A stretch of 64,000 nt of DNA from an uncultured Gammaproteobacteria bacterium (lineage in GTDB: Bacteria; Patescibacteriota; Microgenomatia; CAYQLK01): assembly GCA_964445355.1 (NCBI GenBank), contig CAYUKQ010000002.1:1590-65589 (forward strand). Reading direction: 5' to 3'. The translations under genes were made by a program, and so were the position numbers. Of this stretch, positions 27,418-42,615 are shown one piece after another. Position 1 is the first letter of the stretch. Every line of letters begins with the position of its first letter. A model generated the notes under the pieces. The model was not told the origin of the DNA and ran no database searches. It worked only from the letters and a program-made list of their open reading frames with translations.

Positions 27418-27503
27418 ATTTTCTCTTCATACACCATTATTTTTCTACCCCAAGTAATTAAGTAAAACTGAAATATTCAGGGTTTAATGGTGCTTTTTAG
27501 TTG

Positions 27504-27533
27504 TTGACAATAATTCTTTTTATGGTGAATAAT
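27504..27533 (+). promoter_or_regulatory. Putative sigma70-type promoter of the dcw operon (TTGACA-18-AATAAT)
   Basis: TTGACA at 27504-27509 and AATAAT at 27528-27533, about 45 nt upstream of the mraZ ATG. Confidence 0.4.
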
Positions 27534-27580
27534 GGTTGCAGATGGTAATAAATGGTGATTTAGGGCAACTTAGGGCAGAT
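27521..27580 (+). repeat. Array of six 10-bp-phased direct repeats (four ATGGTNN..., two TAGGGCA...) overlapping the -10 region and the mraZ start: candidate MraZ operator
   Basis: The 60 nt read as six phased 10-mers: tATGGTGAAT, aATGGTTGCA, gATGGTAATA, aATGGTGATT, TAGGGCAACT, TAGGGCAGAT. MraZ is known to bind phased direct repeats in its own promoter. Confidence 0.5.
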
Positions 27581-27983
27581 GTTCTTAGGACAATTTGAAC
27601 CACAATTTTCTTCAAATTCTAAGAGGCTTTCTATTCCGGTCAAACTCCGGTCGGGCTTAACGAAGAATAAAGTTATTCTTTCAAAAGGCTTTGATCAGTG
27701 TATCTTCGGGTATTCTACCGAAGGCTGGGAGGCACAAAGTGTCAAGCACCTTGAAAACCCAATCTCTGACCAAACAGGGCGAGATCTGCGTCGATTTATC
27801 TTTTCTGCCTCGGAAGAAGTTGATTTCGATAAACAAGGCAGAATTGTGATCCCAAAAACCTTAATTGATTACGCTGAGATTGATCAGTCTGTAACCGTCA
27901 TTGGTGCAGGTGATCATTTCGAAATTTGGTCAACCAAAAAATGGAACGAAAAAATATATGCCATTGACACTAAAAACCGTTGA
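27579..27983 (+). CDS. mraZ: Transcriptional regulator MraZ
   Basis: 134 aa, first gene of the dcw cluster, with the duplicated MraZ/AbrB-like half-domain pattern. Confidence 0.8.
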   Translation: MFLGQFEPQFSSNSKRLSIPVKLRSGLTKNKVILSKGFDQCIFGYSTEGWEAQSVKHLENPISDQTGRDLRRFIFSASEEVDFDKQGRIVIPKTLIDYAEIDQSVTVIGAGDHFEIWSTKKWNEKIYAIDTKNR

Positions 27984-28836
27984 AAAACACATTCCTGTTC
28001 TGCCGGATGAATCGTTAAATCTACTCGAGATAACGACCGGATCAAAAATAATTGATGCCACATTAGGTGACGCCGGACATGCATCGCTCTTTTTAAGTCA
28101 TGGTGCCAGAGTACTCGGTATTGATGCTGATCCCGAAAATATCAATAAAGCACAAAATCTTTCTCCAAGCCTACAAGTGGTTCATGGAAATTTTTGCAAT
28201 TTATCTGAGATTGCAAAAAGAGAGAAATTTGATTTTGTTGACGGAATTTTTTTTGATCTCGGTTATTCGTCCACGCAACTTCAGGACAGTACTAAAGGTA
28301 TCAGTTTTCTTAACGACGGACCATTGGATATGAGATTGGATCCCACATCGCAAGGTGTGACAGCTGCCGATTTATTAAAAGTATTAACTGAAAAACAATT
28401 ATATGAATTATTTATCGAATTTGGTCAAGAGAAGCGTGCTCGGCTCATTGCTGACGCTATTGTCCGCGCCCGTTTGATCAAACCAATTGAGACGACTGCT
28501 CAACTGCGCGAAATTGTTGAGCACGTTAGCCCCCGGAGGAGTAAAGATAAAATTCATCCGGCGACTAAGGTTTTTCAGTCGTTAAGAATTGCAATTAACA
28601 GCGAATTGGAAAATCTTGAATCTGCACTTTTACAGTCTGTTGAACTTCTAAAACCCGGAGGTGTTTTGGTAGTTATTTCATTTCACTCATTAGAAGATAA
28701 AATTGTCAAAAATTTTATCCGAAATAATTATTTACTCGTTAATATTACTGATAAGCCTATAGTTCCGAGTATAAACGAAGTTCAGTTAAACAGACGTGCT
28801 CGAAGTGCCAAACTTCGAGCAGCACGGAAAATTTAA
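27958..28836 (+). CDS. rsmH: 16S rRNA (cytosine1402-N4)-methyltransferase RsmH
   Basis: 'DATLGDAGHA' SAM site and 'FDLGYSSTQLQD...GISFLNDGPLDMRLD' RsmH signature. The start was chosen at ATG 27958 (MPLTLK). Confidence 0.85.
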   Translation: MPLTLKTVEKHIPVLPDESLNLLEITTGSKIIDATLGDAGHASLFLSHGARVLGIDADPENINKAQNLSPSLQVVHGNFCNLSEIAKREKFDFVDGIFFDLGYSSTQLQDSTKGISFLNDGPLDMRLDPTSQGVTAADLLKVLTEKQLYELFIEFGQEKRARLIADAIVRARLIKPIETTAQLREIVEHVSPRRSKDKIHPATKVFQSLRIAINSELENLESALLQSVELLKPGGVLVVISFHSLEDKIVKNFIRNNYLLVNITDKPIVPSINEVQLNRRARSAKLRAARKI

Positions 28837-28887
28837 AAAACTGGGCAGCAGTTTTTTGTTACAAGTACAAAAAACAAACTGCTCAAA

Positions 28888-29235
28888 ATGAATGCCGCAA
28901 CAATTCAGTCAAATATATTAATCAGTAGACAGTCTCCAGCTGCGAGAACACTGCCGCACAGTACAAAAATTATTGCGATTGTTTTTACTTTGGTATCCAT
29001 TCTGATTATTGCTAACCTTTTTATTGCTAATTCTTTGGCAACAAAAGGAAAATTAGTTAGTGATCTCAAAATTAAAAGTGAATCCCTAAAAAAAGAAAAT
29101 ATTAGTCTAAAAAGTGAAATTGCCCAGCTTGGATCACTTTCAACGATTGAACAAAAAGCCCGAGTTTTGGGGTTCGAAAAAAATATTACTAACAAAATTT
29201 ATATTAAAGATCCGTCTTTTGCGTATAATCGCTGA
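28888..29235 (+). CDS. ftsL: Cell division protein FtsL-like
   Basis: Small bitopic protein with a TM helix followed by a coiled coil, in the position between rsmH and the PBP gene. Confidence 0.5.
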   Translation: MNAATIQSNILISRQSPAARTLPHSTKIIAIVFTLVSILIIANLFIANSLATKGKLVSDLKIKSESLKKENISLKSEIAQLGSLSTIEQKARVLGFEKNITNKIYIKDPSFAYNR

Positions 29236-29278
29236 ATACTTTTTATAATAACACAATCTATTACTCATAATATTAACT

Positions 29279-31048
29279 ATGCGTGAAATCCGTTGGGTTT
29301 ACTTTGTTTGTTTAGCAGTTTTTATTCTCATCGTTATAAGGTTATTTTATTGGCAGGTGATTAGTCGGGATTCGTTGCAGGCAAAAGCTGAGAAGCAATA
29401 TCTTCGCGATATAGAATTACTTCCAAAAAGAGGCGAAATTTTAACATCTGACGGATCGCCATTAGTCACCAATCAAACGGCATACTTAATGTATGCTAAC
29501 CCTAAGGAAATTATTGATCCAATAGCTGTTGCCGAGAAAATTCAACCAGTCCTGGATTTGAGTGATGTTGCTACAATTAGTGCAGAATTATTGCCAAATT
29601 ATGAAAAAGATTCCTACCAAAAAGACCAAGAATTAAAGAGAAAGGACCGGGAACTAAAATTAGCTGAAAAAATTTCCCAAACCAATTTGGATTGGGTCCT
29701 TGTTGGGCGTAAATTATCCCCAATTCAAAAACAGCAAATCGAAAAATTAAACATCTCAGGCTTAGGATTTAACGATGAAATTGCAAGAGAATATCCAGAA
29801 GGTTCAATGTCTGCTCACTTGCTAGGGTTTGTTGGTTTAGATGATTTTGGACGTGATACCGGATATTTTGGTCTTGAAGGATTTTATAACCGGCAACTCA
29901 AGGGTCGTCTTGGTTTAACTAAAGAAGAGACCGACGCAAAAGGAAATCCAATACTATTAGGTGATTATGGGCGAATTGGAGAGAATCCTGGAAGGACATT
30001 AAAGCTAACTATCGACAGATCAGTGCAAAAGACCGTAGAGGAAGAACTGAAGTCGTCAATTGAGGCCTATCAGGCAAAAGCTGGACAAGTTTTGGTAATG
30101 GATCCTCATACTGGCGCAATTATAGCTTCAGCAGCCTATCCTGCCTACGATCCTGCCAACTACACCAAGTATCCGGATGCTAACTTCGTCAATCCGGTGG
30201 TCGCAGAAACCTACGAACCAGGTTCCACTTTTAAGGTTTTAGCAATGGCAGCAGGAGTCAATGAAAAAGTCATAGAACCTGATACGATTTGTACTATTTG
30301 TGACAAGCCTGTTGAGATTAGTGGCTACAAAATTTCGACTTGGGATAATAAATATCATCCCGGCTCAACAATGACCGAGGTTATCCAAAATTCTGATAAC
30401 ACCGGCATGGTCTTCCTGTCCCAAAAACTAGGATTTGAAAAATTTTATGAGTATCTTAAGAATTTTGGGTTCGGAGATTTGACCGGGGTCGATATTCAAG
30501 ACGAAACATACGGAGTAATTAGGTCCAAAAAGGACTGGAGAGAAATCGATCTGGCAACGGCATCGTTTGGCCAGGGAATTGGGGTTACTTCGATTCAAAT
30601 GGTACGGGCGGTTTCGGCGATTGCTAACGGCGGGACACTACCTACACCACATTTTGTAACTGAAATACTTGAATCAGACAATGCGCTCAAGATTGCTCCA
30701 GAGCAAAAGAATTTTAAAAAAATAATTAGTAAAGAGTCTGCTGACAAAGTCACTCAGATGATGGTTAAGGCCGTAACCGCAGGAGAGGCGCATTACAAAA
30801 TTCCGCAAGGCTATTCTCTGGCAGGAAAAACCGGGACGGCACAGATACCTGTAGCTGGTCACTATGACCCCACAAAAACAATAGCTAGTTTTGTTGGTTT
30901 TGGACCGCTACCTAATCCAAGGTTTGTTATGTTGGTAAGATTTACCGAGCCCAAATCCTCGCCGTACGGATCAGAAACCGCTGCCCCTACATTTTTTAGA
31001 ATTGCATCTGAAATATTTCGCTTATGGTCTATTCCTCCTAATCTTTGA
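29279..31048 (+). CDS. ftsI: Penicillin-binding protein, FtsI-type transpeptidase
   Basis: N-terminal TM helix. Active-site motifs STFK ('GSTFKVLAMAAG'), SDN ('NSDNTG') and KTGT ('AGKTGTAQ'). Confidence 0.8.
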   Translation: MREIRWVYFVCLAVFILIVIRLFYWQVISRDSLQAKAEKQYLRDIELLPKRGEILTSDGSPLVTNQTAYLMYANPKEIIDPIAVAEKIQPVLDLSDVATISAELLPNYEKDSYQKDQELKRKDRELKLAEKISQTNLDWVLVGRKLSPIQKQQIEKLNISGLGFNDEIAREYPEGSMSAHLLGFVGLDDFGRDTGYFGLEGFYNRQLKGRLGLTKEETDAKGNPILLGDYGRIGENPGRTLKLTIDRSVQKTVEEELKSSIEAYQAKAGQVLVMDPHTGAIIASAAYPAYDPANYTKYPDANFVNPVVAETYEPGSTFKVLAMAAGVNEKVIEPDTICTICDKPVEISGYKISTWDNKYHPGSTMTEVIQNSDNTGMVFLSQKLGFEKFYEYLKNFGFGDLTGVDIQDETYGVIRSKKDWREIDLATASFGQGIGVTSIQMVRAVSAIANGGTLPTPHFVTEILESDNALKIAPEQKNFKKIISKESADKVTQMMVKAVTAGEAHYKIPQGYSLAGKTGTAQIPVAGHYDPTKTIASFVGFGPLPNPRFVMLVRFTEPKSSPYGSETAAPTFFRIASEIFRLWSIPPNL

Positions 31049-31094
31049 CATGGGCCACTAATCGACTAAAATAACTCGGGTAACAACTAAAATA

Positions 31095-32288
31095 ATGCAA
31101 AAGTACAAAAACATCTGGCACTTAATCGTAGCTATTTTTGCTAATGTCTACTTTAAATTTCCAACAAAGAAATTAATTGTTATTGGAGTAACTGGTACTG
31201 ACGGCAAAACTACAGTATCGAGTGCTATTCATCATATTTTATCCAAGTCTGGACAAAAAAGCGCATTAATTTCTACAGTCGGCGCAGAAATTGACGGCAA
31301 ACTTGTTGAAACTGGGCTGCATGTGACCACACCTGGTCCAATGGATATACAAAAATTTGCTTGTTTGGCAGTTCAAAAAAAATGCAAATACTTAGTACTA
31401 GAAATCACATCTATCGGCCTGGATCAATTCAGAGATTTCGGGCTTCATTATCAAATAGGGTTGATTACTAATCTTAGTCATGAACATCTTGATTACCATA
31501 TCAATATGGAAAATTACGCTAAAGCAAAAGCCAAACTTCTAAACCGGTCTGAATACCGACTCATTAACCCTAAAGCAGAATTAGTTTATAAGTACTTGTC
31601 GGATAAAAATTCAATTGAAACTTACTCAACTAGTGGAAATACAAATTACACACAAAAATCTTATAAGCTCCCAAAAATCCCAGGAGAATATAATTCTGAG
31701 AACCTAATTGGTGCTGCAGCCGTCTGTACAACACTTGGGCTGACAAAAGTTCAGATTGAACGGGCTTTATTATCATTTTCCCTCCCTAAGGGGCGGATGC
31801 AAAAAATCATTTCGAATAATAAGACTTTTTTTATAGATTTTGGTCACACTCCTCAAGCGCTTGAGTCAACACTCAATTCGATTAAACATAGTTACCCTGA
31901 TAAAAAAATAATTGCAGTTTTTGGTTCAGCAGGTGAACGTGATCGTTCTAAACGACCGTTAATGGGTAGGGCAGCATCAAAATATTCAAACACGATTATT
32001 ATTACAAGCGAAGATCCTCGTCATGAAGATCAGAATAAAATTGCAAACGAGATCAAAGCAGGTTTGGTATCTAAGTTCAATAAAATAGGAAAATTACTGA
32101 CAATTAACGATCGCCAGTCTGCATTTAATGAGGCGGTAAAAATAACTAAAGCCGGTGATATTTGTGTTTTTTTTGGTAAAGGACATGAACAATCAATGAA
32201 CATTCAAGGTGTAGAACATCCCTGGAGTGAAGAAAACGCACTCAAAAAGGCTTTAAAGGAAAATGATCTCACAATATCAAATAAATGA
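31095..32288 (+). CDS. murE: Mur ligase, MurE-like by position (short, 397 aa)
   Basis: 'VIGVTGTDGKTT' P-loop. It starts almost at the P-loop, so the usual N-terminal domain is missing. The murE assignment rests on gene order. Confidence 0.55.
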   Translation: MQKYKNIWHLIVAIFANVYFKFPTKKLIVIGVTGTDGKTTVSSAIHHILSKSGQKSALISTVGAEIDGKLVETGLHVTTPGPMDIQKFACLAVQKKCKYLVLEITSIGLDQFRDFGLHYQIGLITNLSHEHLDYHINMENYAKAKAKLLNRSEYRLINPKAELVYKYLSDKNSIETYSTSGNTNYTQKSYKLPKIPGEYNSENLIGAAAVCTTLGLTKVQIERALLSFSLPKGRMQKIISNNKTFFIDFGHTPQALESTLNSIKHSYPDKKIIAVFGSAGERDRSKRPLMGRAASKYSNTIIITSEDPRHEDQNKIANEIKAGLVSKFNKIGKLLTINDRQSAFNEAVKITKAGDICVFFGKGHEQSMNIQGVEHPWSEENALKKALKENDLTISNK

Positions 32289-33271
32289 CAGAGCAGCAGA
32301 TAAAATCCCTGACAAATGCTCTAGGGATTGACAGGATACTTTTTGACGAGCCAGTTAAAACACACACTTTTTTTAAACAGAATGGGAGAACTAAGCTTTT
32401 TTTTGAAGCAAAAAATACGTTTGATCTAGAACAGGCGGTATCGGTAGCTATTGCGAATAATATTCCATTTGTACTTATTGGAACCGGATCTGGAACAATA
32501 CTGCCCGATAATTTTTCAGATTATCTATTGATAAAAAATTCGAGCAGGGGAATCAAGTTAAAAGGATTTCGCTCATCATCTGGTTCTCAAAAAAAAACTC
32601 CAGAAGTACTGATTCAAGTTGAGTCAGGGGTTACTCTAACAATGCTATCAAGATATTGTGCACATGAGGGTTTGGCGGGTCTAGAATTTTTGCAAACTAT
32701 GCCCGGAAGTGTCGGTGGTGGTGTAAAAAACAACGTAGGCGCCATGCCTACGGTAAAAAATCTACTCGGTAATTTTGTCTATCTTGCAGAAATAATAGAT
32801 ACCAAAACCGGAAAGAAAAAGTTAGTAAATTATGAATATTTCAATTTTGATTACGGCCGCACTACACTTCAGGGAACTAATACGGTTATTATCCAGGTGG
32901 TATTAAAACTACAAAAAGAATTAGCTGAAAATGACTCGATCGATTTTCCAAAATATGTTACAAATTTAGGCGCAAATTTATTAAGTAATCCGATTTTTAT
33001 TAATATTTCTCATAGAGATGCGGTTCGACTCTCAACAAAGCATTTTACGCTCTCGCCATCATATATAATCCGTCAGCTTCAACTAGAAAAAGATCGATTT
33101 GAAAAAGTTAGCATTTATCCTGAGGATCCGAATCGCTTTATACTTGAACCGGGCTTTGCACCTGATGATGTATCTAGGCTGATCAGATATATTAAAAAGA
33201 ATGCGAAAGAGAAATTTAAGTTAAATTTAGAGCCCCGGATTGATATTATTAAATTAAAGAACGCAAAATGA
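32285..33271 (+). CDS. murB: UDP-N-acetylenolpyruvoylglucosamine reductase MurB
   Basis: FAD-binding PCMH motifs 'NIPFVLIGTGSGTIL' and 'GLAGLEFLQTMPGSVGGGVKNNVGA'. The C-terminus 'IRYIKKNAKEKFKLNLEPRIDII' resembles the MurB C-terminus. Confidence 0.7.
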   Translation: MTEQQIKSLTNALGIDRILFDEPVKTHTFFKQNGRTKLFFEAKNTFDLEQAVSVAIANNIPFVLIGTGSGTILPDNFSDYLLIKNSSRGIKLKGFRSSSGSQKKTPEVLIQVESGVTLTMLSRYCAHEGLAGLEFLQTMPGSVGGGVKNNVGAMPTVKNLLGNFVYLAEIIDTKTGKKKLVNYEYFNFDYGRTTLQGTNTVIIQVVLKLQKELAENDSIDFPKYVTNLGANLLSNPIFINISHRDAVRLSTKHFTLSPSYIIRQLQLEKDRFEKVSIYPEDPNRFILEPGFAPDDVSRLIRYIKKNAKEKFKLNLEPRIDIIKLKNAK

Positions 33272-34383
33272 TTTATTACACAGTCCTAAAGGATATATCG
33301 TTCGCCAAAAAACCTCTGCATGTACTCAGAGCACTATTGGCAAAATATTTATTAGCCATTTCGTCTAAAACCGTTATTGGGGTAACAGGTAGTGTAGGCA
33401 AAACAACGACAACAAACACGATTCGCTGTGCACTGGCTGGACTGGCGATTTCAACTAGCAGTAATTTAGACTCAATTTTTAATATTCCAATTACAATTCT
33501 CAAGTCCTTTCGATTCCGATATCTGGTTCTCGAAATGGGGGTTCAGTATCCGCAAGATATGGAATACAACGTATCTGTAGCACCGGTTGACGTGGCTGTA
33601 TTCACAAAAATTTCTCCAGCGCATACCAAATTTTTGAAAGATACGAATGGAATATTTTTTGAAAAAACAAAAATAATTACGCCAAAAACCAAGTTAATCG
33701 TTTTCAATTTTGACGATCCTTTACAGTTGCAAAAGTTTAGAAATTCTAAAATTAAAACCATTAGTTATGGATTCTCGAAAAACGCCGATGTGAGTATTAC
33801 CATAAATCAATCAACACTTACCAACACGTCAATAACATTAATAAGCGATGGGAAAAAATATCTAGTCAGTTCTCGACTAATTGGCAAACATCAAGCATAT
33901 TCCGTTGGTGCGGCATTTGCAGTGGGAAAATATTTTAAAATTCACCCCGATCAATTAATTACTAATATTGAAAAAACCGAACCGGCAAACAATCGATTTA
34001 ATCTTGTAAAAATTAAACAATGGGATGTTATAAAAGATATCTATAATTCTTCTCCGCAAGCTCTCAGCGACGCGATTGAATTCGTTAAACGGCAAGACCA
34101 GAGACAGAAAATAATTATTATTGGCGATATGCTCGAGTTAGGTGAAATATCAACAGATCAACATTTAATAATTGCCAGGCAATTGCTTGCAGCAAACTTT
34201 GATCAGGTATTTACATATGGATCAGAATCAAAAAAAATTCACGATTACCTGTCAAAGCATCATTCCAAATCAAAATTAGTGCATCTTACTAAACCGTTTA
34301 AGTTGTCTGATCAAAAATTTGATTCAAACTCTCTAATCTTGATCAAAGGTTCGCATGGTATGCACATGGAAAATTTTCTTTAA
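33268..34383 (+). CDS. murF: Mur ligase, MurF-like by position (short, 371 aa)
   Basis: 'VIGVTGSVGKTTTTN' P-loop, positioned just before mraY. No N-terminal domain. Confidence 0.5.
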   Translation: MIYYTVLKDISFAKKPLHVLRALLAKYLLAISSKTVIGVTGSVGKTTTTNTIRCALAGLAISTSSNLDSIFNIPITILKSFRFRYLVLEMGVQYPQDMEYNVSVAPVDVAVFTKISPAHTKFLKDTNGIFFEKTKIITPKTKLIVFNFDDPLQLQKFRNSKIKTISYGFSKNADVSITINQSTLTNTSITLISDGKKYLVSSRLIGKHQAYSVGAAFAVGKYFKIHPDQLITNIEKTEPANNRFNLVKIKQWDVIKDIYNSSPQALSDAIEFVKRQDQRQKIIIIGDMLELGEISTDQHLIIARQLLAANFDQVFTYGSESKKIHDYLSKHHSKSKLVHLTKPFKLSDQKFDSNSLILIKGSHGMHMENFL

Positions 34384-34424
34384 AATATTTATATGAATTT
34401 ATTTAACTGTATAATGCAAATAGC

Positions 34425-35459
34425 ATGATAGGATTACTTAGCTTAATATTAGTATCATTTTTTACCGTTGCGGTACTATCAGTTCCGTTTATCAATCTTC
34501 TTTATAAGATTAAATTTCAGCGTCAAAATCAACAAACCAGGGATATGTTCAACAAGCGTACCCCGATTTTTGATAAATTTCATGCGCATAAGGCCGGTAC
34601 ACCTTTGGGTGGTGGTGTTTTAGTTGTTTTCAGTGTTGTTGTTCTTTTTTTGCTAGTTGGTTTAGTGAGGGAAATTTTTTCTTTTGAATCCACTTCCGTT
34701 TATCCCTACGCTCAAGAGGTATTTATCATTCTTTTCAGCGTCGTCTCATTTGCAGTATTAGGTCTCGTCGACGATGTCAGAAAAACATTTCAACTCAAAA
34801 AAACTAGTTTTTTTGGTCTTCGTTTTAGACAAAAGATCTTAATACAAATAATACTTGCACTATTTATCTCGTCATATCTGTATTTTGTTTTAAAAATCGA
34901 CATAGTAAATTTAAGATTTATTGACGTCTTTCATATTGGTCCTTTATTCATCCCCTTTGCCACTCTGGTGATAGTAAGTTTTGTGAATGCAGTGAATATT
35001 GCTGATGGTTTAGACGGCTTAGCTGGTGGGCTACTATTAATTGCACTAATTGCATTCTTAATGATTTCGTCCTCAATTCTCGACACTACATTGTCGGCGT
35101 TTTTAGGTTTATGGATCGGCGCACTAATTGCATTCCTATACTTTAATATCTATCCAGCTAGAATTTGGATGGGTGACGCTGGCGCATTGGGCTTTGGGGC
35201 GGGTTTGGCAATTACAGGATTACTATTAGGCAAAACGCCAGCACTGGCGATTATCTGCGGGATGTTTGTGGTTGAGGTTGCTTCTTCTTTGATTCAGCTT
35301 CTTTCCAAAAAGTTTTTTCACCGTAAGATATTCGAAGCAGCTCCACTCCATCTTTATTTGCAAAATAAAGGTTGGCCAGAGCCTAAAATTGTGATGAGAT
35401 TTTGGCTTGCTGGTATCCTTCTAGCGGTTATGGGTTTACTATTGGCATTTTTAGGTTAG
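34425..35459 (+). CDS. mraY: Phospho-N-acetylmuramoyl-pentapeptide transferase MraY
   Basis: 'NAVNIADGLDGLAGG' MraY/WecA signature in a ten-TM protein. Confidence 0.85.
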   Translation: MIGLLSLILVSFFTVAVLSVPFINLLYKIKFQRQNQQTRDMFNKRTPIFDKFHAHKAGTPLGGGVLVVFSVVVLFLLVGLVREIFSFESTSVYPYAQEVFIILFSVVSFAVLGLVDDVRKTFQLKKTSFFGLRFRQKILIQIILALFISSYLYFVLKIDIVNLRFIDVFHIGPLFIPFATLVIVSFVNAVNIADGLDGLAGGLLLIALIAFLMISSSILDTTLSAFLGLWIGALIAFLYFNIYPARIWMGDAGALGFGAGLAITGLLLGKTPALAIICGMFVVEVASSLIQLLSKKFFHRKIFEAAPLHLYLQNKGWPEPKIVMRFWLAGILLAVMGLLLAFLG

Positions 35460-35509
35460 GTTAAGGCTAATCTGTATTGTTCAGTTGGAAATGGTTAAAA
35501 TCTAATGAT

Positions 35510-36814
35510 ATGGATATTCCGAATTTCTCAGGTAAAAAAGTTTTGATCATGGGTTTGGGTGTGAACGGTGGTGGAGTTGAATCGGCAAAATTTTTTTTTA
35601 ATGCAGGGAGCATCGTCACCGTGACTGATCTTCAAGATGAAAATGTGCTCAAAAAATCACTTCAGGAGTTAAAAAAGTATAAAGGTATTACTTATCACCT
35701 GGGCCAACATATTGAGACAGATTTTATCGATACCGATATCATTATAAAAAATCCGGGTGTGCCGCCAACTTCTAAATTTCTGCAAATTGCACAGAAAAAT
35801 TCTAAATTAGTAACTTCCGATTTGGAAGTATTTATGCGATTAGCCATGCCTAAAAAAGTTATTGCAATCACAGGAACGAAAGGAAAAAGCACAACAGCGA
35901 CATTTATTAGTCAAATATTAGATAGTCTCAAAGTGCCTAATATATTAGTGGGCAATATTGGTAAGTCTCCGCTGAATTGTTTAGGGATTGAAAAAGATAA
36001 ATATGTAATTTTAGAGCTTTCTTCATTTCAGATCGATGATTTGGGTGGTCAAAAGCCATATTTTGACGTGGTTACAATTACTAATATTTTTCCAGATCAT
36101 CTAAATAGATACGGAAGTTTTGAAAATTATCAGAATGCAAAATTGAATTTGATTAAGTACATTAAACCTGATGGAAAAGTAATTTTGCCGAAGTTAAATA
36201 ATTTTGATCATCTGGTAAATGTTCCTAAAATTGTATTTTTTTCAGATAAATTTACTTTAAATATTTTTAATAATACATCGGAAAATGTTCTCAACTTTAA
36301 TGCCGCATTATTATCCGTATCGGAACTACTTGCAATTAATGATCCTTCTCAGATTCTCACTAAAATTAAAAAGCTCAGCCCGCCTCGCTTCAGGAATGAA
36401 GTTGTTCGCAAACTGAATAATATTTATTTTATCAACGACTCTACGGCCACAAATCCGACCGTCGCGGTGGCAACCCTAAAGAATTACCCGCCAAAAGGTA
36501 CGATTGTAATTCTTGGCGGCTCGAGTAAAGATTTGTCTAGTAATATCCTGGCAAATTACATTAACCAGCATGAGTTTCATGTAATTCTCTTACAATCGAT
36601 CGTTGGTCAAGAATTATCACAGAAAATCAAAAAATCATTAATTATTTCAAAACCAGATAATTTAAAAGATGCAGTGAACGCCGGATATAAATATCTCAGA
36701 AAAACTCAAGGGACACGTTTAATACTTACTCCAGGAGCGGCATCATTTGGTATGTTTATTAACGAATTCGATCGCGGTGAACAGTTTAATCAATTAGTCA
36801 CTAGCCTCAAATGA
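35510..36814 (+). CDS. murD: UDP-N-acetylmuramoylalanine--D-glutamate ligase MurD
   Basis: N-terminal Rossmann 'KKVLIMGLGVNGGG' plus the Mur ligase P-loop 'IAITGTKGKSTT'. The start was set at ATG 35510. Confidence 0.75.
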   Translation: MDIPNFSGKKVLIMGLGVNGGGVESAKFFFNAGSIVTVTDLQDENVLKKSLQELKKYKGITYHLGQHIETDFIDTDIIIKNPGVPPTSKFLQIAQKNSKLVTSDLEVFMRLAMPKKVIAITGTKGKSTTATFISQILDSLKVPNILVGNIGKSPLNCLGIEKDKYVILELSSFQIDDLGGQKPYFDVVTITNIFPDHLNRYGSFENYQNAKLNLIKYIKPDGKVILPKLNNFDHLVNVPKIVFFSDKFTLNIFNNTSENVLNFNAALLSVSELLAINDPSQILTKIKKLSPPRFRNEVVRKLNNIYFINDSTATNPTVAVATLKNYPPKGTIVILGGSSKDLSSNILANYINQHEFHVILLQSIVGQELSQKIKKSLIISKPDNLKDAVNAGYKYLRKTQGTRLILTPGAASFGMFINEFDRGEQFNQLVTSLK

Positions 36815-37971
36815 AATCCAGAATTTTTCAAAACCGTAACATTGTGACGTTATTTTCAACGACGTATTTACTAACAGTTATCGGATTAATTTTAATTTAT
36901 AACGCCTCAGCAGTAACAAGTCTTAGGGATTTCGGTGATCAGAGTTATTTATTAAAAAAACAGCTCGTGTCTGTTTTGTTGGGCTCAATGGCCTTAATTA
37001 TTCTTTCCTTGATTAACTATCGTGTTTTGCTAAGTTTTGCCAAGATTTTCTATATTCTTTCATTGACTTTACTCGCCTCATTATATATTCCGGGAGTTGC
37101 GGATAGTATCTACGGGGCAAAACGCTGGATAACCATTGCCGGCCAGCAGTTTCAACCATCGGAAGCGGCAAAATTATCGGTCATAATTTATTTATCACAC
37201 TGGCTTGGTGGATCAAAAATTCCCAGAAAACTTTATTTTTCTTCACAGCATGCAAATTTTGGATTGGTTATTGCACCAATATTAGGTTTGATCGTATTTG
37301 AGCCCGATCTCAAATCAACTGTAATTATTGCTGCGACCGCGATCGTCGTATATTTTGTTTCGGGAGCAATAACATTAAGGTTGCTAACCACACTTATTCC
37401 ATTATTTCTAGTTTCGGTCATAATTTTAATTTTTACCCAAAGTTATCGAATCGATCGGCTTAAAACATTTATCGATCCTACTTCGGACACCCAGAATACT
37501 TCATATCATATTAATCAAATACTTATAGCACTAGGTAATGGCGGTTGGTTTGGGGTAGGGTTAGGTCAGTCACGCCAAAAATTTGAATTTATTCCTGAGA
37601 TTACAACAGATAGTATTTTTGCAATTGCTGCTGAGGAACTGGGTTTTTTTGGAGCAATCACGATTATTGGATCACTTTGGTTTTTGCTTGCACACTGCTT
37701 TAATATAGCTATGTCCACGAAGGATCCGATGGCTCGACTACTAGCTACAGGAATTAGTACATCGCTCGCACTTCAGGTCATAATTAATCTTGCATCGATG
37801 GTATCACTGCTTCCATTAACAGGCATACCTCTACCGTTTCTATCTTATGGTGGAACCTCTTTAATTATGGCAATGTCATCGATCGGTATATTAATTAATA
37901 TTGCAAAAAATGATAATCAGCAACAATCTTCCAGAATATATAAAATCCAAAAGAAAAGATGGAAAAGATAA
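36811..37971 (+). CDS. ftsW: SEDS-family peptidoglycan glycosyltransferase, FtsW by context
   Basis: Ten-TM FtsW/RodA/SpoVE family protein between murD and murG. Confidence 0.75.
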   Translation: MKSRIFQNRNIVTLFSTTYLLTVIGLILIYNASAVTSLRDFGDQSYLLKKQLVSVLLGSMALIILSLINYRVLLSFAKIFYILSLTLLASLYIPGVADSIYGAKRWITIAGQQFQPSEAAKLSVIIYLSHWLGGSKIPRKLYFSSQHANFGLVIAPILGLIVFEPDLKSTVIIAATAIVVYFVSGAITLRLLTTLIPLFLVSVIILIFTQSYRIDRLKTFIDPTSDTQNTSYHINQILIALGNGGWFGVGLGQSRQKFEFIPEITTDSIFAIAAEELGFFGAITIIGSLWFLLAHCFNIAMSTKDPMARLLATGISTSLALQVIINLASMVSLLPLTGIPLPFLSYGGTSLIMAMSSIGILINIAKNDNQQQSSRIYKIQKKRWKR

Positions 37972-39092
37972 AAAAAGTCGTTATCATTGGTGGCCACGCC
38001 ACTCCGGCAATCGCATTAATTGATGCGTTAGAAAAAAAATCCAACTTACATATTTATTTTTTTGGCCGAAAATACTCTACTGAAGGGGATGAAGCGCCGT
38101 CGATAGAATTTAAATTTCTAAGCGATCGTAAAAATGTCATTTTTGTCCCAATAACTTCCGGCAGATTACAGCGTTCGTTTACAGTACACACAATACCTTC
38201 TTTAGCCAAGATTCCAATTGGTTTTTTACAGTCGTTTTTCTACTTAGTTCGAATCCGCCCCAGTGTTGTCGTTGGGTTTGGCGGCTATCTTTCCGTTCCG
38301 ATCATCATTAGCGCTGCAATTCTTAAAATTCCTATTTTTGTTCACGAACAGACTTCCATTCCCGGACTTTCTATCAAAATAACCGCAAAATTTGCATCTA
38401 AAATTTTTATTTCATTTAAAAAATCCCAAAAATATTTTGATCCAAAAAAAACAGTATTTAGCGGAAATCTTCTCAGAAAAGAGATTTTTTCCTCAACTCC
38501 AATAGCTGACCAGGAATTAAATGATTTCTTGTCCAAAAAGTCTGCCAAAATCATATATATTACAGGCGGTGGTCAGGGATCAAGAATACTTAATAATTTT
38601 GTTATTGATAATTTTGATAATCTTTTAAAAACTCAATTTCGTTTTATTATTCAAACAGGAAGTTTGGATAATCAACAGAGTTTTAATATTTTATCAGCAA
38701 AGATCTCAAATCATTCAGAGGCTCGTAGTCGGTTTTTGGTCCGGCAACATTTTTCGTCAGAGCAAGTTGCTGGAATTTTTCAAAAGAACCCAATTGTTTT
38801 TGGAAGATCTGGTGCGAACACCGTTTGTGAGATTGTATTTTTTAAATTAAAGGCAATTTTTGTACCATTAGATATTGCTGCCGGATCAGAACAAATGATC
38901 AATGCAAAACTTTTAGCTGATCATGATTTTGCCAAAATTATCCCAGCAGCAGAGCTAAATATTGAAACTTTTCTTACAGTTCTAAATTCACACAATGCGG
39001 TTATTTCTCAGTCAAATATCGAACTTGTCAAGCAAGAGATCCGCATCGATTCTGAGGGAGCTTTATCTGCTGCCATAATTACTGCTGTATAG
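37959..39092 (+). CDS. murG: Undecaprenyldiphospho-muramoylpentapeptide beta-N-acetylglucosaminyltransferase MurG
   Basis: GT28-like; 'VVIIGGHATPAIALIDAL' N-terminus; position after ftsW. Confidence 0.65.
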   Translation: MEKIKKVVIIGGHATPAIALIDALEKKSNLHIYFFGRKYSTEGDEAPSIEFKFLSDRKNVIFVPITSGRLQRSFTVHTIPSLAKIPIGFLQSFFYLVRIRPSVVVGFGGYLSVPIIISAAILKIPIFVHEQTSIPGLSIKITAKFASKIFISFKKSQKYFDPKKTVFSGNLLRKEIFSSTPIADQELNDFLSKKSAKIIYITGGGQGSRILNNFVIDNFDNLLKTQFRFIIQTGSLDNQQSFNILSAKISNHSEARSRFLVRQHFSSEQVAGIFQKNPIVFGRSGANTVCEIVFFKLKAIFVPLDIAAGSEQMINAKLLADHDFAKIIPAAELNIETFLTVLNSHNAVISQSNIELVKQEIRIDSEGALSAAIITAV

Positions 39093-39103
39093 CTTATACT
39101 ATC

Positions 39104-39961
39104 ATGAAGTATTCCTCCCGGCATCATCGCATTAAACGACCGCGCCAGCCGTTTAAAATTTCTAAAAAAAAGCTAATCACTGTTACTCTAATTTTCTTTG
39201 TTACCCCGTTTATTTACTGGTTAGTCTTTCACAGTGCATTATTCAAAATTCAAAAAACCGAATTTGCAACTCCAGCTAATTTTAATTGCTTAAATACTTC
39301 CCAGCTATCTCAATTCGACCGCACGGGTAAGTCGATATTCTTCTTCAACACTTCTCAACTTGAGGAAGAGCTTAAGCAAAATAGTTGTATCGAAGAAGTA
39401 TTTGTAGAATTAAATCCCAAGAGAGTACTTAAAATCTCTTTCACATTAGCTCGTCCAATGGCAGAGATTTACGTTAATCCAAAACTCCAGGATGTATATA
39501 AGGTTGCAACATCGAGTATTGACCTTCGGTCATCGACTGTTTCCGCAATCCTAAAACCCACATCATTAATCGATACAAATAAAAACCTCAATTCGAGATC
39601 ACTTACTCAGGTTAGGGTTGCGTCCGATAGCTCGCTACCAAAACTTTTTTTAGGTGAGGATCAAAAAAGTAATCAGGATTTTAGCAAGTTTCAAATAATA
39701 CCAGTCCTTAATTGTCTAAGTGAAAACCTAATTCAATCAATTTATTTTACCGTAATCAACCAGCGTCTTGTTGTCTACAATCTTAATGTAAACAACGGAT
39801 TTACAACACTTGATGCAAAATTGCTTGTCAATCCAGAAATGCTTCCTCAAAACTTTTGTCTAACTTTGCAAGAAATAATTCAAAAAAGTACAATAGATGG
39901 TATCAAACTAGATTCAATTGACCTTAGGTTTAAAGATCCTGTTGTAAACATATTAAAATAA
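39104..39961 (+). CDS. ftsQ: Cell division protein FtsQ/DivIB-like
   Basis: Bitopic: a basic N-terminus, one TM helix, then an extracytoplasmic domain. It lies immediately upstream of ftsA. Confidence 0.45.
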   Translation: MKYSSRHHRIKRPRQPFKISKKKLITVTLIFFVTPFIYWLVFHSALFKIQKTEFATPANFNCLNTSQLSQFDRTGKSIFFFNTSQLEEELKQNSCIEEVFVELNPKRVLKISFTLARPMAEIYVNPKLQDVYKVATSSIDLRSSTVSAILKPTSLIDTNKNLNSRSLTQVRVASDSSLPKLFLGEDQKSNQDFSKFQIIPVLNCLSENLIQSIYFTVINQRLVVYNLNVNNGFTTLDAKLLVNPEMLPQNFCLTLQEIIQKSTIDGIKLDSIDLRFKDPVVNILK

Positions 39962-39977
39962 ATTTAACCTAGTATTT

Positions 39978-41255: not shown

Positions 41256-41403
41256 TAATATCCATCAAAATCACTTGAATAAAGTTATATAATTTGTTAG
41301 AGTTCGACTAGACAATTTAGTCCAAATTCTTTCCCTGCCTATAAAACCATTACACGACTAAATTGTGAAAAATGATTAAAAAAAGTGTTCAATTAGTCAC
41401 AAA

Positions 41404-42615
41404 ATGCTTGTAAAACCAGAGGTAACAAATTTCGCAAAAATTAAAGTAATTGGTGTTGGTGGTGGCGGTGGAAACGCAATTAATTCTATGATCGCCGGAA
41501 ATACCATACACGATGTCGATTTTGTTGCAATAAACACGGATGCACAGCAATTATTATCTTCATTAGCGCCTGTTAAAGTTCAATTAGGTGACCAATTAAC
41601 CAAAGGTCTTGGTGCTGGTGCCGATCCTGAAATAGGCAGGCAGGCTGCAGAGGAATCGATAGACAAAATTCAGGAAGTTCTAGAAGGATCAGACATGGTA
41701 TTCGTGACATATGGTGGTGGCGGTGGTACCGGGACCGGAGCCGGACCAGTTGTAGCATCAGTTGCCAAAAAATTAGGCATTTTGACAGTTGCAGTAGTGA
41801 CAAAACCATTTGCTTTTGAAGGAACACGTCGTATGCTGATTGCCGAAGAGGGTATTGCTAATCTCAGAGACAATGTTGATACGCTTATTGTTATTCCTAA
41901 TCAAAGACTAATTGAAGTAGTAGATAAGAAGGTTTCGCTAATCGACGCGTTTAAGCTTTCTGATACTATTTTAACCAACGGCGTTCAGGGTATTTCAGAT
42001 TTGATAACTGTATCCGGGAATATTAATGTTGACTTTGCGGACGTTAAAGCAGTAATGAAAGATTCTGGTTCTGCACTAATGGGTATGGGTATTGCTTCAG
42101 GTGATAATCGGGCAATTAACGCCGCTCGGCAAGCGGTGGTTTCGCCACTATTGGACGTATCAATTGAAGGAGCAAAAGGTCTGCTTTTTAATATTACGGG
42201 TGGTCCGGATCTTTCTCTTTCAGAAGTTGACGAAGCAGCACAGGTAATCACAAAACCAGCCGATCCTGACGCTCAAATAATATATGGCTATACAATAGAT
42301 GAAAATATGGTCGATCAGATAAAGATCACTGTCGTTGCTACGGGTTTTGATGACGAAATAAAATTAGGCGGCGGTTATGCTTCGCCGTCGACGTACGCAC
42401 AACGTCCGGTTTATGAAGAAGATGACACAAAAAACCGTAGGGATGATGACTACGATGAAGATCGAAATAATTTTTCCAAGTCGCCCGCTTCTTCAAATCA
42501 CTCTGAGTCAAATCTCTCTTCTGTCCATGAAGAGGCAAAATCTATTGAAGAAAAAGAAGAGTTTGTTGAAGAAGATGAGTGGGATGTTCCTGCCTTCCTT
42601 CGTCAGCGAAATTAA
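41404..42615 (+). CDS. ftsZ: Cell division GTPase FtsZ
   Basis: '[15 protein letters not shown]' and '[10 protein letters not shown]' tubulin signature, followed by an acidic C-terminal tail. Confidence 0.9.

What the first reader, a model, noticed from the sequence alone, without database searches (positions are those of the whole stretch)
27521..27580. Six phased 10-bp direct repeats spanning the -10 region and the mraZ start codon
The repeat units are tATGGTGAAT, aATGGTTGCA, gATGGTAATA, aATGGTGATT, TAGGGCAACT and TAGGGCAGAT. They run in perfect helical phase from the putative -10 hexamer to the ATG. MraZ is known to autoregulate the dcw operon by binding phased direct repeats. This is a clear candidate operator, with two distinct repeat flavors (ATGGT and TAGGGCA).
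Basis: partly seen in the sequence, partly recalled or inferred. Interest (0 to 1): 0.55.

Follow-up and report, generated by a model that had tools for sequence, protein, structure and literature searches.

The report
Four-box MraZ operator plus leader repeats
Four evenly spaced ATGG boxes sitting on the promoter of the cell-division gene cluster are the expected docking sites of the repressor MraZ and are conserved across a whole group of uncultured ultra-small bacteria. The two adjacent TAGGGCA repeats are a separate, strongly conserved but clade-specific element whose role is unresolved.

Summary
ATGGT occurs at 27522, 27532, 27542 and 27552, the only four-fold 10-bp-phased 5-mer in the window (0 of 300 simulations). 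TAGGGCA occurs at 27561 and 27571, ending at the mraZ ATG (27579).

The four ATGG boxes are a canonical MraZ operator:
- They lie at the head of a complete dcw cluster.
- They overlap a TTGACA-18-AATAAT promoter; the last two -10 bases are the first two of box 2.
- 71 of 86 distinct orthologous Patescibacteria (Microgenomates) promoters have four NTGG boxes at exactly 10 bp. Box 1 starts 17-18 nt after the start of TTGAC, while the distance to the ATG ranges from 44 to 246 nt.
- This matches the published GTG(G/T)+6 architecture in E. coli, B. subtilis, Burkholderia and the Mycoplasma cryoEM four-box complex.

The TAGGGCA pair is not a canonical box. It lacks the invariant T, scores negative on the box matrix, and is absent outside one genus-level clade. 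Within that clade, 56 of 57 positions from box 1 to the ATG are invariant although four-fold sites are near saturation, so the pair is functional. It duplicates codons 3-5 of mraZ. The options are a translation-initiation element, weak in-phase MraZ contacts, another factor's site, or part of a leaderless upstream ORF.

Verdict: new member of a known kind, with modest interest.

The parts
27504..27509 (+). -35 hexamer TTGACA of the dcw (mraZ) promoter
   Evidence: Promoter scan scores 11 of 12 matches. TTGAC lies 17-18 nt upstream of box 1 in 68 of 71 distinct orthologous promoters.
27528..27533 (+). -10 hexamer AATAAT. Its last two bases (A27532, T27533) are the first two bases of box 2.
   Evidence: Identified by the promoter scan. 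Box 2 begins with AT in almost all lineages (information 1.8 and 2.0 bits), while boxes 1, 3 and 4 tolerate A, G or T at the first position. The TSS inferred at about 27540 is not mapped.
27522..27531 (+). MraZ box 1 (ATGGTGAATA), inside the -35/-10 spacer and the -10
   Evidence: matrix score +11.5, top 0.01% of window 10-mers.
27532..27541 (+). MraZ box 2 (ATGGTTGCAG), covering the end of the -10 up to the inferred TSS. G27538 is the only position that differs from the other clade members, which have A.
   Evidence: (score +6.2).
27542..27551 (+). MraZ box 3 (ATGGTAATAA). Its ATG lies 8 nt after the -10.
   Evidence: score +11.4. The geometry relative to the -10 is compared with other genes.
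27552..27560 (+). MraZ box 4 (ATGGTGATT)
   Evidence: score +10.0.
27560..27568 (+). Leader repeat copy 1, TTAGGGCAA. It is in 10-bp register with the boxes but reads AGGG where they read ATGG.
   Evidence: score -5.3. Invariant in 8 lineages. Absent outside the clade.
27570..27578 (+). Leader repeat copy 2, TTAGGGCAG, abutting the start codon
   Evidence: (score -2.9). The identical 9-mer forms codons 3-5 of mraZ in outgroup L088.
27585..27593 (+). Third, near-identical copy TTAGGACAA, forming mraZ codons 3-5 (Leu-Gly-Gln), 15 nt after copy 2
   Evidence: Synonymous sites here are invariant in the clade.
27579..27983 (+). mraZ (134 aa), the cognate repressor gene
   Evidence: Pfam PF02381 at E=2e-26. 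Aligns to the solved M. pneumoniae and M. genitalium MraZ structures at E about 1e-16 to 1e-17, with R16 and R88 equivalent to the base-contacting R15 and R86.
27958..42615 (+). Rest of the dcw cluster: rsmH, ftsL-like, ftsI, three Mur ligases (Mur_ligase_M/C; one with a MurD-like N domain), murB, mraY, ftsW, murG, one unassigned ORF, ftsA, ftsZ
   Evidence: Pfam scans.
27542..27598 (+). Hypothetical 18-codon upstream ORF (MVINGDLGQLRADVLRTI*). It starts at the box-3 ATG and overlaps the mraZ start by 20 nt. Speculative.
   Evidence: ORF identified. The distance from the -10 to this ATG (8 nt) equals the genome's leaderless-type geometry. There is no direct evidence of translation.

Best explanation
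Positions 27522-27560 are a four-box MraZ operator built into the core promoter of the dcw operon of a Patescibacteria (Microgenomates-related) bacterium.

Inferred mechanism, by analogy with the M. genitalium cryoEM complex:
- An MraZ oligomer opens, and four neighbouring subunits each insert their cradle motif (here R16 and R88) into one major groove.
- Each subunit reads a T-G-G core. The cores repeat every 10 bp on one face of the helix.
- The boxes occupy the -35/-10 spacer, the -10 itself and the transcription start. Bound MraZ therefore excludes RNA polymerase and represses mraZ and at least the promoter-proximal dcw genes (negative autoregulation).

The two TAGGGCA units (27560-27578) are not part of the canonical operator. 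They are transcribed leader sequence, sense duplicates of mraZ codons 3-5, and are kept invariant in one genus-level clade. My best guess, by a small margin, is that they act at the mRNA level in translation initiation of mraZ rather than as MraZ boxes.

Shown here: the anatomy, the conservation, and the anchoring of the array to the promoter. Inferred: binding, repression, the TSS, and the role of the TAGGGCA pair.
For: 1. Gene context. mraZ heads a complete dcw cluster.

2. Non-random array. It is the only 4x phased TGG array in 64 kb; 0 of 300 simulations produce one.

3. Promoter overlap. TTGACA-18-AATAAT, with the -10 sharing AT with box 2.

4. Comparative evidence.
- 71 of 86 distinct promoters upstream of MraZ orthologues (35-96% identity) have four NTGG boxes at exactly 10 bp.
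- Control coding regions never exceed 2 phased TGG.
- Box 1 starts 17-18 nt after the start of TTGAC in 68 of 71, while the distance to the start codon ranges from 44 to 246 nt.
- Box 2 is nearly always ATGG, as the shared -10 requires.

5. Published systems.
- GTG(G/T) boxes with 6-nt spacers. Four boxes are bound by four subunits; K13, R15 and R86 read T-G-(T/G); the TSS lies inside box 1 (PMC12957436).
- Three GTGG[A/T]G repeats are required for repression in B. subtilis (bioRxiv 10.1101/2022.02.09.479790).
- Four 7+3-nt repeats lie downstream of the -10 and overlap the TSS in B. cenocepacia, 'as in E. coli' (PMC7761207).
- E. coli Pmra read directly: TTGACA-18-TAAACT, then GTGGG x3 at 10 bp.

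6. The protein keeps both arginines (R16, R88), which are invariant in 48 homologues.

7. The TAGGGCA pair is a separate element.
- Negative matrix scores; units 5 and 6 carry no information in other lineages.
- In long-leader lineages a G-rich motif (GTAAGGG) stays 3-5 nt from the ATG. GGG lies within 12 nt of the start in 14 of 24, but only 1 of 24 has GG in box register after box 4.
- Synonymous-site constraint continues into codons 1-25 (13/21 against 15/71, p=7e-4).
- Sister lineages carry an RNA element acting on the same codons.
Against: - There are no binding, footprint, TSS or expression data for this uncultured organism.
- The first box position is A, not the G of GTGG.
- The residue equivalent to base-contacting Lys13 is Ser14 (Lys15 is adjacent), and the first DXXXR motif reads SNSKR.
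- Complete invariance of the box spacers in the clade is more than MraZ binding alone should require.

For the mRNA-level reading of the TAGGGCA pair:
- The genome is poor in Shine-Dalgarno sequences.
- AGGG lies only 3 nt from the AUG, too close for a canonical SD.
- No stable or covarying RNA structure was found.
- L083/L084 carry extra TTAGGGCAA and TTAGGAC copies upstream of the -35, and L004/L005 have TTAGG(G) abutting it. That region is presumably untranscribed, which points to DNA-level recognition.
- The GG of both units is in exact register with the GG of the boxes. E. coli also has a T-to-G degenerate unit (GGGGT) in phase after its third box.
- Some relatives have AGGG, AAGG or GAGG as their terminal box.
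Confidence: 0.8

Rival explanations
1. One reading: all six units form one extended MraZ operator. Four high-affinity ATGG boxes nucleate binding. Two further subunits of the oligomer then dock on weaker AGGG units in the next two helical turns, extending occupancy to the start codon.
For: - The units are in exact 10-bp register, with the GG of both TAGGGCA units aligned to the GG contacted by the two arginines.
- E. coli has GGGGT in phase after its three GTGGG boxes, close to the ATG.
- Relatives L078, L048, L077 and L066 have AGGG, AAGG or GAGG as a degenerate terminal box.
- 15 of 39 short-leader loci have GG in register in unit 5.
- MraZ forms octamers or dodecamers and fibre-like assemblies on DNA.
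- The pair is invariant in the clade.
Against: - The T of the T-G-G core is invariant in the selected arrays and base-contacted in the cryoEM structure.
- Matrix scores are -5.3 and -2.9. The units also lack the TGA that follows the core in this lineage's boxes.
- No unit 5 or 6 signal appears in long-leader lineages, 1 of 24.
- In short-leader lineages, register and proximity to the ATG are confounded.
- A 10-bp tandem duplicate keeps phase automatically, and a GGG run aligns its GG with the boxes in about 2 of 10 possible offsets, so the register is weak evidence.
Confidence: 0.27
2. The TTAGGRCAR repeats are DNA sites for a second regulator, for example a direct-repeat-binding response regulator. 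The repeats lie at 27560, 27570 and 27585, with additional copies upstream of the -35 in some relatives. Such a factor would act together with MraZ at the dcw promoter.
For: - L083/L084 have TTAGGAC and TTAGGGCAA 14 nt apart just upstream of the -35. L004 and L005 have TTAGGG or TTAGG abutting the -35.
- That makes 4 TTAGG on the + strand in about 700 nt of otherwise unrelated upstream sequence, against about 0.6 expected from the window frequency.
- The three downstream copies are invariant, including at synonymous sites.
- The spacings of 10 and 14-15 nt are typical of direct-repeat binders (general knowledge).
Against: - There is no other exact copy in the 64-kb window, and one-mismatch copies are at the chance level, 25 against 26 expected.
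- The upstream copies are absent or degenerate in the window itself and in L001, L002, L089 and L095.
- No candidate regulator was identified.
Confidence: 0.13
3. The box-3 ATG (27542) is the 5'-terminal start codon of a leaderless 18-codon upstream ORF (27542-27598). The ORF reads through the TAGGGCA repeats and overlaps the mraZ start by 20 nt. MraZ synthesis would then be coupled to, or throttled by, translation of this ORF.
For: - The -10 ends 8 nt before this ATG. -10-like hexamers ending 6-10 nt before the start codon occur at 12 of 54 genes in the window, against about 1 per distance bin elsewhere. This suggests widespread leaderless or near-leaderless mRNAs.
- Gene overlaps of 14-26 nt are common in this genome.
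- In all 31 distinct Gottesmanbacteria-type promoters, the frame from the box-3 ATG or GTG runs 9 codons and ends in the TGA of an ATGA at the mraZ start.
Against: - Any ATGG box provides an ATG, so the ORF may be a by-product of the operator.
- The peptide is not conserved across lineages, and in long-leader lineages the ORF ends far upstream of mraZ.
- Box 3 is GTG in many lineages, a poor leaderless start.
- Invariance at all three codon positions is not a coding signature.
- The TSS is unmapped.
Confidence: 0.1
4. The repeats are neutral products of replication slippage or chance, without function.
For: 7-mer pairs at 10-bp spacing occur by chance about 7.5 times per 64 kb, so the TAGGGCA pair alone is not unusual. 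Tandem Repeats Finder finds nothing.
Against: - 0 of 300 simulations give a 4x phased 5-mer.
- The boxes are conserved in 71 of 86 distinct promoters across a phylum-level group.
- 56 of 57 positions from box 1 to the ATG are invariant in 8 lineages. In those lineages four-fold sites are only 41-60% identical between the main lineages (up to 0.90 between the closest pairs), and only 8 of 35 are invariant.
Confidence: 0.01

Closest known systems
M. genitalium dcw promoter: four GTG(T/G) boxes bound by four MraZ subunits (cryoEM, PMC12957436)
   Same: Four direct boxes with a 10-bp period and a T-G-(G/T) core, overlapping the transcription start and lying immediately upstream of mraZ. The cognate protein has equivalents of the two base-contacting arginines.
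   Different: - The first box position is A rather than G.
- The Lys13 equivalent is Ser, and the first DXXXR motif reads SNSKR.
- Box 1 lies in the -35/-10 spacer and box 2 shares two bases with the -10.
- Two extra in-phase AGGG units follow the array.
E. coli Pmra (mraZ1p) with three GTGGG direct repeats (Eraso et al. 2014, cited; sequence read)
   Same: A TTGACA-18-(-10) promoter followed by boxes with 10-bp period and a short leader. A degenerate T-to-G unit (GGGGT) lies in phase between the last good box and the ATG.
   Different: E. coli has three boxes, starting 7 nt after the -10 (downstream of it) rather than inside the spacer and -10. Its core is GTGGG. It has no duplicated copy of the first codons in the leader.
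B. subtilis MraZ-binding repeats (three GTGG[A/T]G with 4-nt spacers; bioRxiv 10.1101/2022.02.09.479790)
   Same: A 6+4 = 10-bp period. The repeats are required for repression of the mra operon, and a triple repeat is unique to this promoter in the genome. The window likewise has no other phased array.
   Different: Three boxes against four, and GTGG against ATGG.
B. cenocepacia PmraBc: four repeats of 7 nt with 3-nt spacers (PMC7761207)
   Same: Four 7+3-nt repeats located at the -10/TSS, with EMSA-verified binding of MraZ to the fragment. The 7-nt unit here is ATGGTGA.
   Different: The Burkholderia leader is 100 nt long, so the repeats are far from the ATG.

Membership tests
MraZ operator (MraZ-binding repeats of the dcw promoter): boxes 1-4, 27522-27560 | Lies directly upstream of mraZ at the head of the dcw cluster | tested here: met
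   mraZ matches Pfam at E=2e-26. It is followed by rsmH, ftsL-like, ftsI, mur genes, mraY, ftsW, murG, ftsA and ftsZ.
MraZ operator (MraZ-binding repeats of the dcw promoter): boxes 1-4, 27522-27560 | Three or four direct repeats with a 10-bp period (4+6, 6+4 or 7+3) | tested here: met
   ATGGT starts at 27522, 27532, 27542 and 27552. The array is unique in the window, and 0 of 300 simulations reproduce it.
MraZ operator (MraZ-binding repeats of the dcw promoter): boxes 1-4, 27522-27560 | Core GTG(G/T), with a base-contacted T-G-(T/G) signature | tested here: met
   All four boxes have T-G-G. The first position is A instead of G, a variation shared by most Microgenomates boxes ([A/G/T]TGG).
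MraZ operator (MraZ-binding repeats of the dcw promoter): boxes 1-4, 27522-27560 | Overlaps the -10 and/or the transcription start | tested here: inconclusive
   The array overlaps the predicted TTGACA-18-AATAAT promoter. The offset to the -35 is fixed at 17-18 nt in 68 of 71 orthologous promoters. The TSS is not mapped.
MraZ operator (MraZ-binding repeats of the dcw promoter): boxes 1-4, 27522-27560 | Conserved in orthologous mraZ promoters | tested here: met
   71 of 86 distinct promoters have 4 of 4 phased NTGG. Control coding regions reach 2 at most.
MraZ operator (MraZ-binding repeats of the dcw promoter): boxes 1-4, 27522-27560 | The cognate MraZ carries the DNA-contact residues (two DXXXR motifs; K13, R15 and R86 in M. 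genitalium) | tested here: inconclusive
   R16 and R88 are present and invariant, and the second motif (DKQGR) is intact. The first motif is SNSKR, and the Lys13 equivalent is Ser14 with Lys15 adjacent.
MraZ operator (MraZ-binding repeats of the dcw promoter): boxes 1-4, 27522-27560 | MraZ physically binds the repeats and represses the promoter | not testable with these tools
   Requires EMSA, footprinting or a reporter assay.
MraZ box: TAGGGCA units, 27560-27578 | T-G-(G/T) core | tested here: not met
   In register the units read A-G-G-G, so the T is replaced by G. Matrix log-odds are -5.3 and -2.9.
MraZ box: TAGGGCA units, 27560-27578 | 10-bp register with the neighbouring boxes | tested here: met
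   Starts at 27562 and 27572 continue the series 27522 to 27552. This is weak evidence, because a 10-bp tandem duplicate keeps phase automatically.
MraZ box: TAGGGCA units, 27560-27578 | Conserved in orthologous promoters beyond close relatives | tested here: not met
   Present only in the clade with at least 79% MraZ identity. Absent in the outgroups L087 and L088 and in all other lineages, where units 5 and 6 carry about 0 bits.
Shine-Dalgarno element: TAGGG at 27571-27575 | Complementary to the 16S 3' end and 5-10 nt from the start codon; used genome-wide | tested here: inconclusive
   AGGG can form only about 4 pairs with a standard CCUCC anti-SD (general knowledge) and lies 3 nt from the AUG. 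Most genes in the window lack an SD. The 16S rRNA is not in the window.

The most novel reading that the evidence does not exclude
The operator boxes double as translation signals. Transcription starts about 2 nt before the box-3 ATG (27542), giving a leaderless mRNA. Its first ORF (18 codons, 27542-27598) runs through the TAGGGCA repeats and overlaps the mraZ start by 20 nt. MraZ would then be made only by coupling to this mini-ORF. One 57-bp segment would thus be operator, promoter, upstream ORF and initiation region at once, which would explain why every base is invariant. A less radical variant of a second, clade-specific regulatory layer is that the TAGGGCA units are second-flavour docking sites that extend the MraZ assembly to six subunits.
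Probability: 0.12. Interest if true: 0.6.

Novelty: new member of a known kind. Interest (0 to 1): 0.3.

Why it matters
MraZ autoregulation through phased boxes is established in Proteobacteria, Firmicutes and Mollicutes. This result shows the same design in Patescibacteria (CPR), which have very few regulators and no genetics. There it takes a strict form: four boxes, fused to the -10.

It gives a clean sequence rule for annotating dcw promoters in these genomes: TTGACA, 11-12 nt, then four [A/G/T]TGG boxes at 10-bp spacing. No paper in the searched library mentions MraZ together with Patescibacteria.

The invariant TAGGGCA leader, and the anti-initiation-region helix in sister lineages, suggest that mraZ is also controlled after transcription in this group. 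That second layer would be a new aspect of dcw regulation if confirmed.

Tried and rejected
- **Stable RNA structure in the leader.** The fold of 27540-27640 has z=+0.84. RNAalifold on 8 clade members shows no compensatory pair.
- **A downstream anti-initiation element.** I tested whether UUCUAAGAG (27618-27626) pairs with the start region or the leader copies. Duplex energies are no better than shuffles in any clade member, p=0.45-0.98. Rejected.
- **The leader element of sister lineages in the window's clade.** The leader element complementary to codons 2-7 was sought there. It is absent, p=0.16-0.6.
- **Known RNA families.** Only three tRNAs are found in the window, and nothing at the mraZ leader.
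- **A TTAGGGCAR regulon.** There are no further exact copies, and one-mismatch copies are at the chance level.
- **Other MraZ targets in the window.** There is no other triple or quadruple phased TGG array.
- **Extra ATGGTG copies.** Copies at 27487 (+) and 27432-27439 (-) were considered as outlying boxes. They are out of phase and not conserved even in the 96%-identical relative L089. Probably chance.
- **Shine-Dalgarno reading of TAGGG.** Not supported by genome-wide usage or by spacing, but not excluded.
- **Tandem Repeats Finder.** Finds nothing, because the units are too divergent outside the core.
- **Eraso et al. 2014 (PMC4010979).** Not held in the library. The E. coli sequence was read directly instead.
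- **Caveat on the box matrix.** The matrix was built from arrays selected for TGG, so its TGG columns are circular. The flanking columns and the unit 5-6 result are not.
Full report
**What is there.** The window encodes a complete division and cell-wall cluster on the + strand. It runs mraZ (27579-27983; Pfam MraZ E=2e-26), rsmH, an FtsL/DivIC-like gene, ftsI, three Mur ligases, murB, mraY, ftsW, murG, one unassigned ORF, ftsA and ftsZ (to 42615). A glycyl-tRNA synthetase gene ends at 27417. The 161-bp gap before mraZ holds a near-consensus promoter: TTGACA (27504-09), 18 nt, AATAAT (27528-33). MraZ homologues and related contigs place the organism in Patescibacteria, near the Microgenomates lineages (Curtiss-, Gottesman-, Davies-, Shapiro- and Woesebacteria).

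**Check of the observation.**
- ATGGT starts at 27522, 27532, 27542 and 27552. No other 5-mer occurs four times in phase at any period from 7 to 13 in the window.
- It is the only 4x TGG array with 10-bp spacing on either strand. Simulations expect 0.01, and 0 of 300 produced any 5-mer four times at period 10.
- TAGGGCA starts at 27561 and 27571. A third near-copy (TTAGGACA) forms mraZ codons 3-5 at 27585-27593.
- A 7-mer pair at 10-bp spacing is not unusual by itself; about 7.5 positions are expected per 64 kb.

**Comparative test.** I collected 94 related mraZ loci from species-representative genomes, metagenomes and assemblies.
- Of 86 distinct promoter sequences, 71 carry four NTGG boxes at exactly 10-bp spacing. 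Control stretches inside coding sequence never exceed two.
- In 68 of those 71, box 1 begins 17 or 18 nt after the start of a TTGAC(A) -35 element. The distance from box 1 to the start codon ranges from 44 to 246 nt. The array is therefore tied to the promoter, not to the ATG.
- The -10 hexamer is made of the box-1 spacer plus the AT of box 2. This explains why box 2 is almost invariably ATGG, while boxes 1, 3 and 4 accept A, G or T at the first position.
- Typical arrays are ATGGTGAAAA ATGGTAATAG ATGGTGAGAA ATGGTGA (Curtissbacteria type) and ATGGGTAACT ATGGATATTA GTGGGAAGAA GTGGTAG (Gottesmanbacteria type).

**Comparison with what is known.**
- MraZ boxes are described as GTG(G/T) cores with six spacer nucleotides. 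Most bacteria have three and some mycoplasmas four.
- CryoEM of the M. genitalium complex shows four subunits of an opened octamer, each reading T-G-(T/G) in one major groove through Lys13, Arg15 and Arg86. The TSS lies inside box 1 (PMC12957436).
- In B. subtilis, three GTGG[A/T]G repeats with 4-nt spacers are required for repression (bioRxiv 10.1101/2022.02.09.479790).
- In B. cenocepacia, four 7-nt repeats with 3-nt spacers lie after the -10 and over the TSS, 'as in E. coli' (PMC7761207).
- The E. coli K-12 sequence reads TTGACA-18-TAAACT-cctttca-GTGGGaaattGTGGGgcaaaGTGGGaataaGGGGTgaggctggcATG.
- The window's MraZ aligns to the solved mycoplasma proteins. R16 and R88 sit at the Arg15 and Arg86 positions, but Ser14 replaces Lys13 and the first DXXXR motif reads SNSKR.

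On every feature I could test, boxes 1-4 qualify as an MraZ operator. Binding itself cannot be tested here.

**Mechanism (inferred).** MraZ would occupy four consecutive major grooves on one face, from the -35/-10 spacer through the -10 to about +20. That would exclude RNA polymerase and give negative autoregulation of mraZ and the promoter-proximal dcw genes. Several downstream genes (ftsI, mraY, murD) have their own -10-like hexamers just before the start codon, so control may not reach the whole cluster.

**The TAGGGCA pair.** It is not a canonical box.
- In register it reads AGGG where the boxes read ATGG. It keeps the two G bases that the arginines would contact but loses the T.
- On a matrix built from 64 arrays of other lineages, boxes 1-4 score +6.2 to +11.5 and the two units score -5.3 and -2.9. 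In other lineages units 5 and 6 carry no information.
- The pair is confined to a clade of at least eight lineages with 79-96% MraZ identity. The nearest outgroups (59% and 52%) have four boxes (TTGGC ATGGT ATGGT TTGGC) and unrelated leaders.

Within that clade the conservation is extreme.
- 56 of 57 positions from box 1 to the ATG are identical in all eight lineages. The only difference is the window's own G27538.
- By contrast, four-fold degenerate sites are 41-60% identical between the main lineages, and only 8 of 35 are invariant. The 12 nt between the -35 and box 1 vary, and everything upstream of the -35 is unrelated.
- Synonymous sites of codons 1-25 are also over-conserved: 13 of 21 against 15 of 71, p=7e-4.

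The pair is therefore functional, but the invariance prevents separating its role from that of its neighbours.

**Arguments on what the pair does.**

For an mRNA-level role at the initiation region:
- The repeats fill the rest of the predicted 39-nt leader.
- They are sense copies of codons 3-5. In outgroup L088 those codons read TTAGGGCAG, identical to copy 2.
- In long-leader lineages a G-rich motif (GTAAGGG) stays 3-5 nt from the ATG, while nothing box-like follows box 4.
- In 26 of 44 related loci the leader carries an element complementary to codons 2-7. Here the initiation region is clearly a regulatory target.

Against an mRNA-level role:
- The genome hardly uses Shine-Dalgarno sequences.
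- AGGG is only 3 nt from the AUG.
- No RNA structure is supported.

For weak MraZ contacts:
- The register is exact.
- E. coli has a GGGGT unit in phase after its third box.
- Some relatives have degenerate terminal boxes, AGGG, AAGG or GAGG.

For another DNA-binding factor:
- L083/L084 have extra TTAGGAC and TTAGGGCAA copies upstream of the -35, and L004/L005 have TTAGG(G) abutting it.

A further possibility is a leaderless upstream ORF.
- The box-3 ATG lies 8 nt after the -10. That is the geometry of the many leaderless-type genes in this genome: -10-like hexamers end 6-10 nt before the ATG at 12 of 54 genes.
- This ATG opens an 18-codon ORF overlapping the mraZ start by 20 nt.
- In all 31 distinct Gottesmanbacteria-type promoters the equivalent frame ends in the TGA of an ATGA at the mraZ start.

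I rank the options as follows: initiation-region element about 0.35, auxiliary MraZ units about 0.27, other factor about 0.13, upstream ORF about 0.1.

**Verdict.** The 'two flavours' reading is not supported as stated. The finding is a new member of a known kind: a well-understood operator type in a phylum where it had not been described in the library searched. Interest is modest. The unexplained part is the invariant TAGGGCA leader and the evidence for post-transcriptional control of mraZ in this group.

Noticed in passing
L007, L010, L013, L016, L018, L019, L022, L025, L026, L030, L031, L033, L041, L043, L048, L050, L052, L055, L057, L063, L066, L070, L071, L075, L077, L078 (leaders upstream of mraZ; not in the window): A leader element is complementary over 9-17 nt to mraZ codons 2-7 (-13 to -25 kcal/mol; p<=0.005-0.04 per locus against shuffles), at 3-109 nt from the ATG. 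It changes together with the coding sequence: GCUGCCCGGGAG pairs with UUUCUGGGCAGC, AUAUUCUGCCCAGAAAG with UUUUUGGGCGAAUAU, and UGAUAUCUGCCCAGAAAA with UUUUUGGGUAAAUAUCA. This looks like a conserved helix enclosing the ribosome-binding region and AUG of mraZ. I know of no described family for it. Only the window, which lacks the element, was scanned against Rfam.
   Followed up: partly
window, start regions of 54 genes (for example 34425, 47174, 50471, 54308(-), 58888): -10-like hexamers (at least 5 of 6 matches to TATAAT) end 6-10 nt before the ATG at 12 of 54 genes, against about one per distance bin elsewhere. Most genes have no Shine-Dalgarno sequence. The genome appears to use many leaderless or near-leaderless mRNAs.
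   Followed up: partly
31 distinct Gottesmanbacteria-type loci (for example L017, L034, L051, L053): The distance from box 1 to the ATG is fixed at 46 nt with no indels. The frame opened by the box-3 ATG or GTG runs 9 codons and always ends in the TGA of an ATGA overlapping the mraZ start. The second mraZ codon always begins with A.
   Followed up: partly
L007, L010, L013, L018, L026, L071 and other Curtissbacteria-type loci, just after box 4: Box 4 is followed by an inverted copy (ATGGTGAatcACCAT). This forms a palindrome in the DNA, or a 5'-proximal hairpin in the transcript.
   Followed up: no
L083/L084 at -105 and -91 relative to the ATG; L004 and L005 at -83: Extra copies of the leader repeat lie upstream of the -35: TTAGGAC and TTAGGGCAA in L083/L084, TTAGGG or TTAGG in L004/L005. 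The surrounding sequence is otherwise unrelated. In the window this position has decayed to TTTTTAG (27496-27502).
   Followed up: partly
window 27486-27496 (+) and 27432-27439 (-): Two more ATGGTG copies lie upstream of the -35: AATGGTGCTTT on the + strand, and CACCATTA (TAATGGTG on the - strand). They are out of 10-bp phase with the array and absent in the closest relative L089.
   Followed up: yes
Gottesmanbacteria-type loci, around the -35: A CGTGAAA(T/A) motif recurs about 6 nt upstream of the -35 and again between the -35 and box 1 (for example cgtgaaataccccTTGACAaaccgtgaaaaATGGG). It may be an additional degenerate box or an UP-like element.
   Followed up: no
L022, L026, L031, L050 (just upstream of the mraZ ATG): Hairpins of the form CCCTCCTTC...GGAGGG lie immediately before the start codon. 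They could sequester a GGAGG ribosome-binding site.
   Followed up: no
window 27612-27650 (mraZ codons 14-20): TCT AAG AGG CTT TCT ATT CCG is almost invariant at synonymous sites in the clade. This is part of the excess constraint on codons 1-25 (13/21 against 15/71, p=7e-4). A pairing model with the start region was tested and rejected.
   Followed up: yes
window, many adjacent gene pairs (for example 1298/1314, 2211/2227, 7225/7250, 27958/27983): Neighbouring genes often overlap by 14-68 nt, including mraZ and rsmH (26 nt). This suggests frequent translational coupling.
   Followed up: no
L001, L002, L003, L005 and many others (record titles): Many TPA metagenome-assembled genomes titled 'uncultured Gammaproteobacteria' or 'Candidatus Saccharibacteria' carry Microgenomates-type mraZ loci. 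One (L014) is titled Bathyarchaeia. The record names look like placeholder or wrong taxonomy.
   Followed up: no
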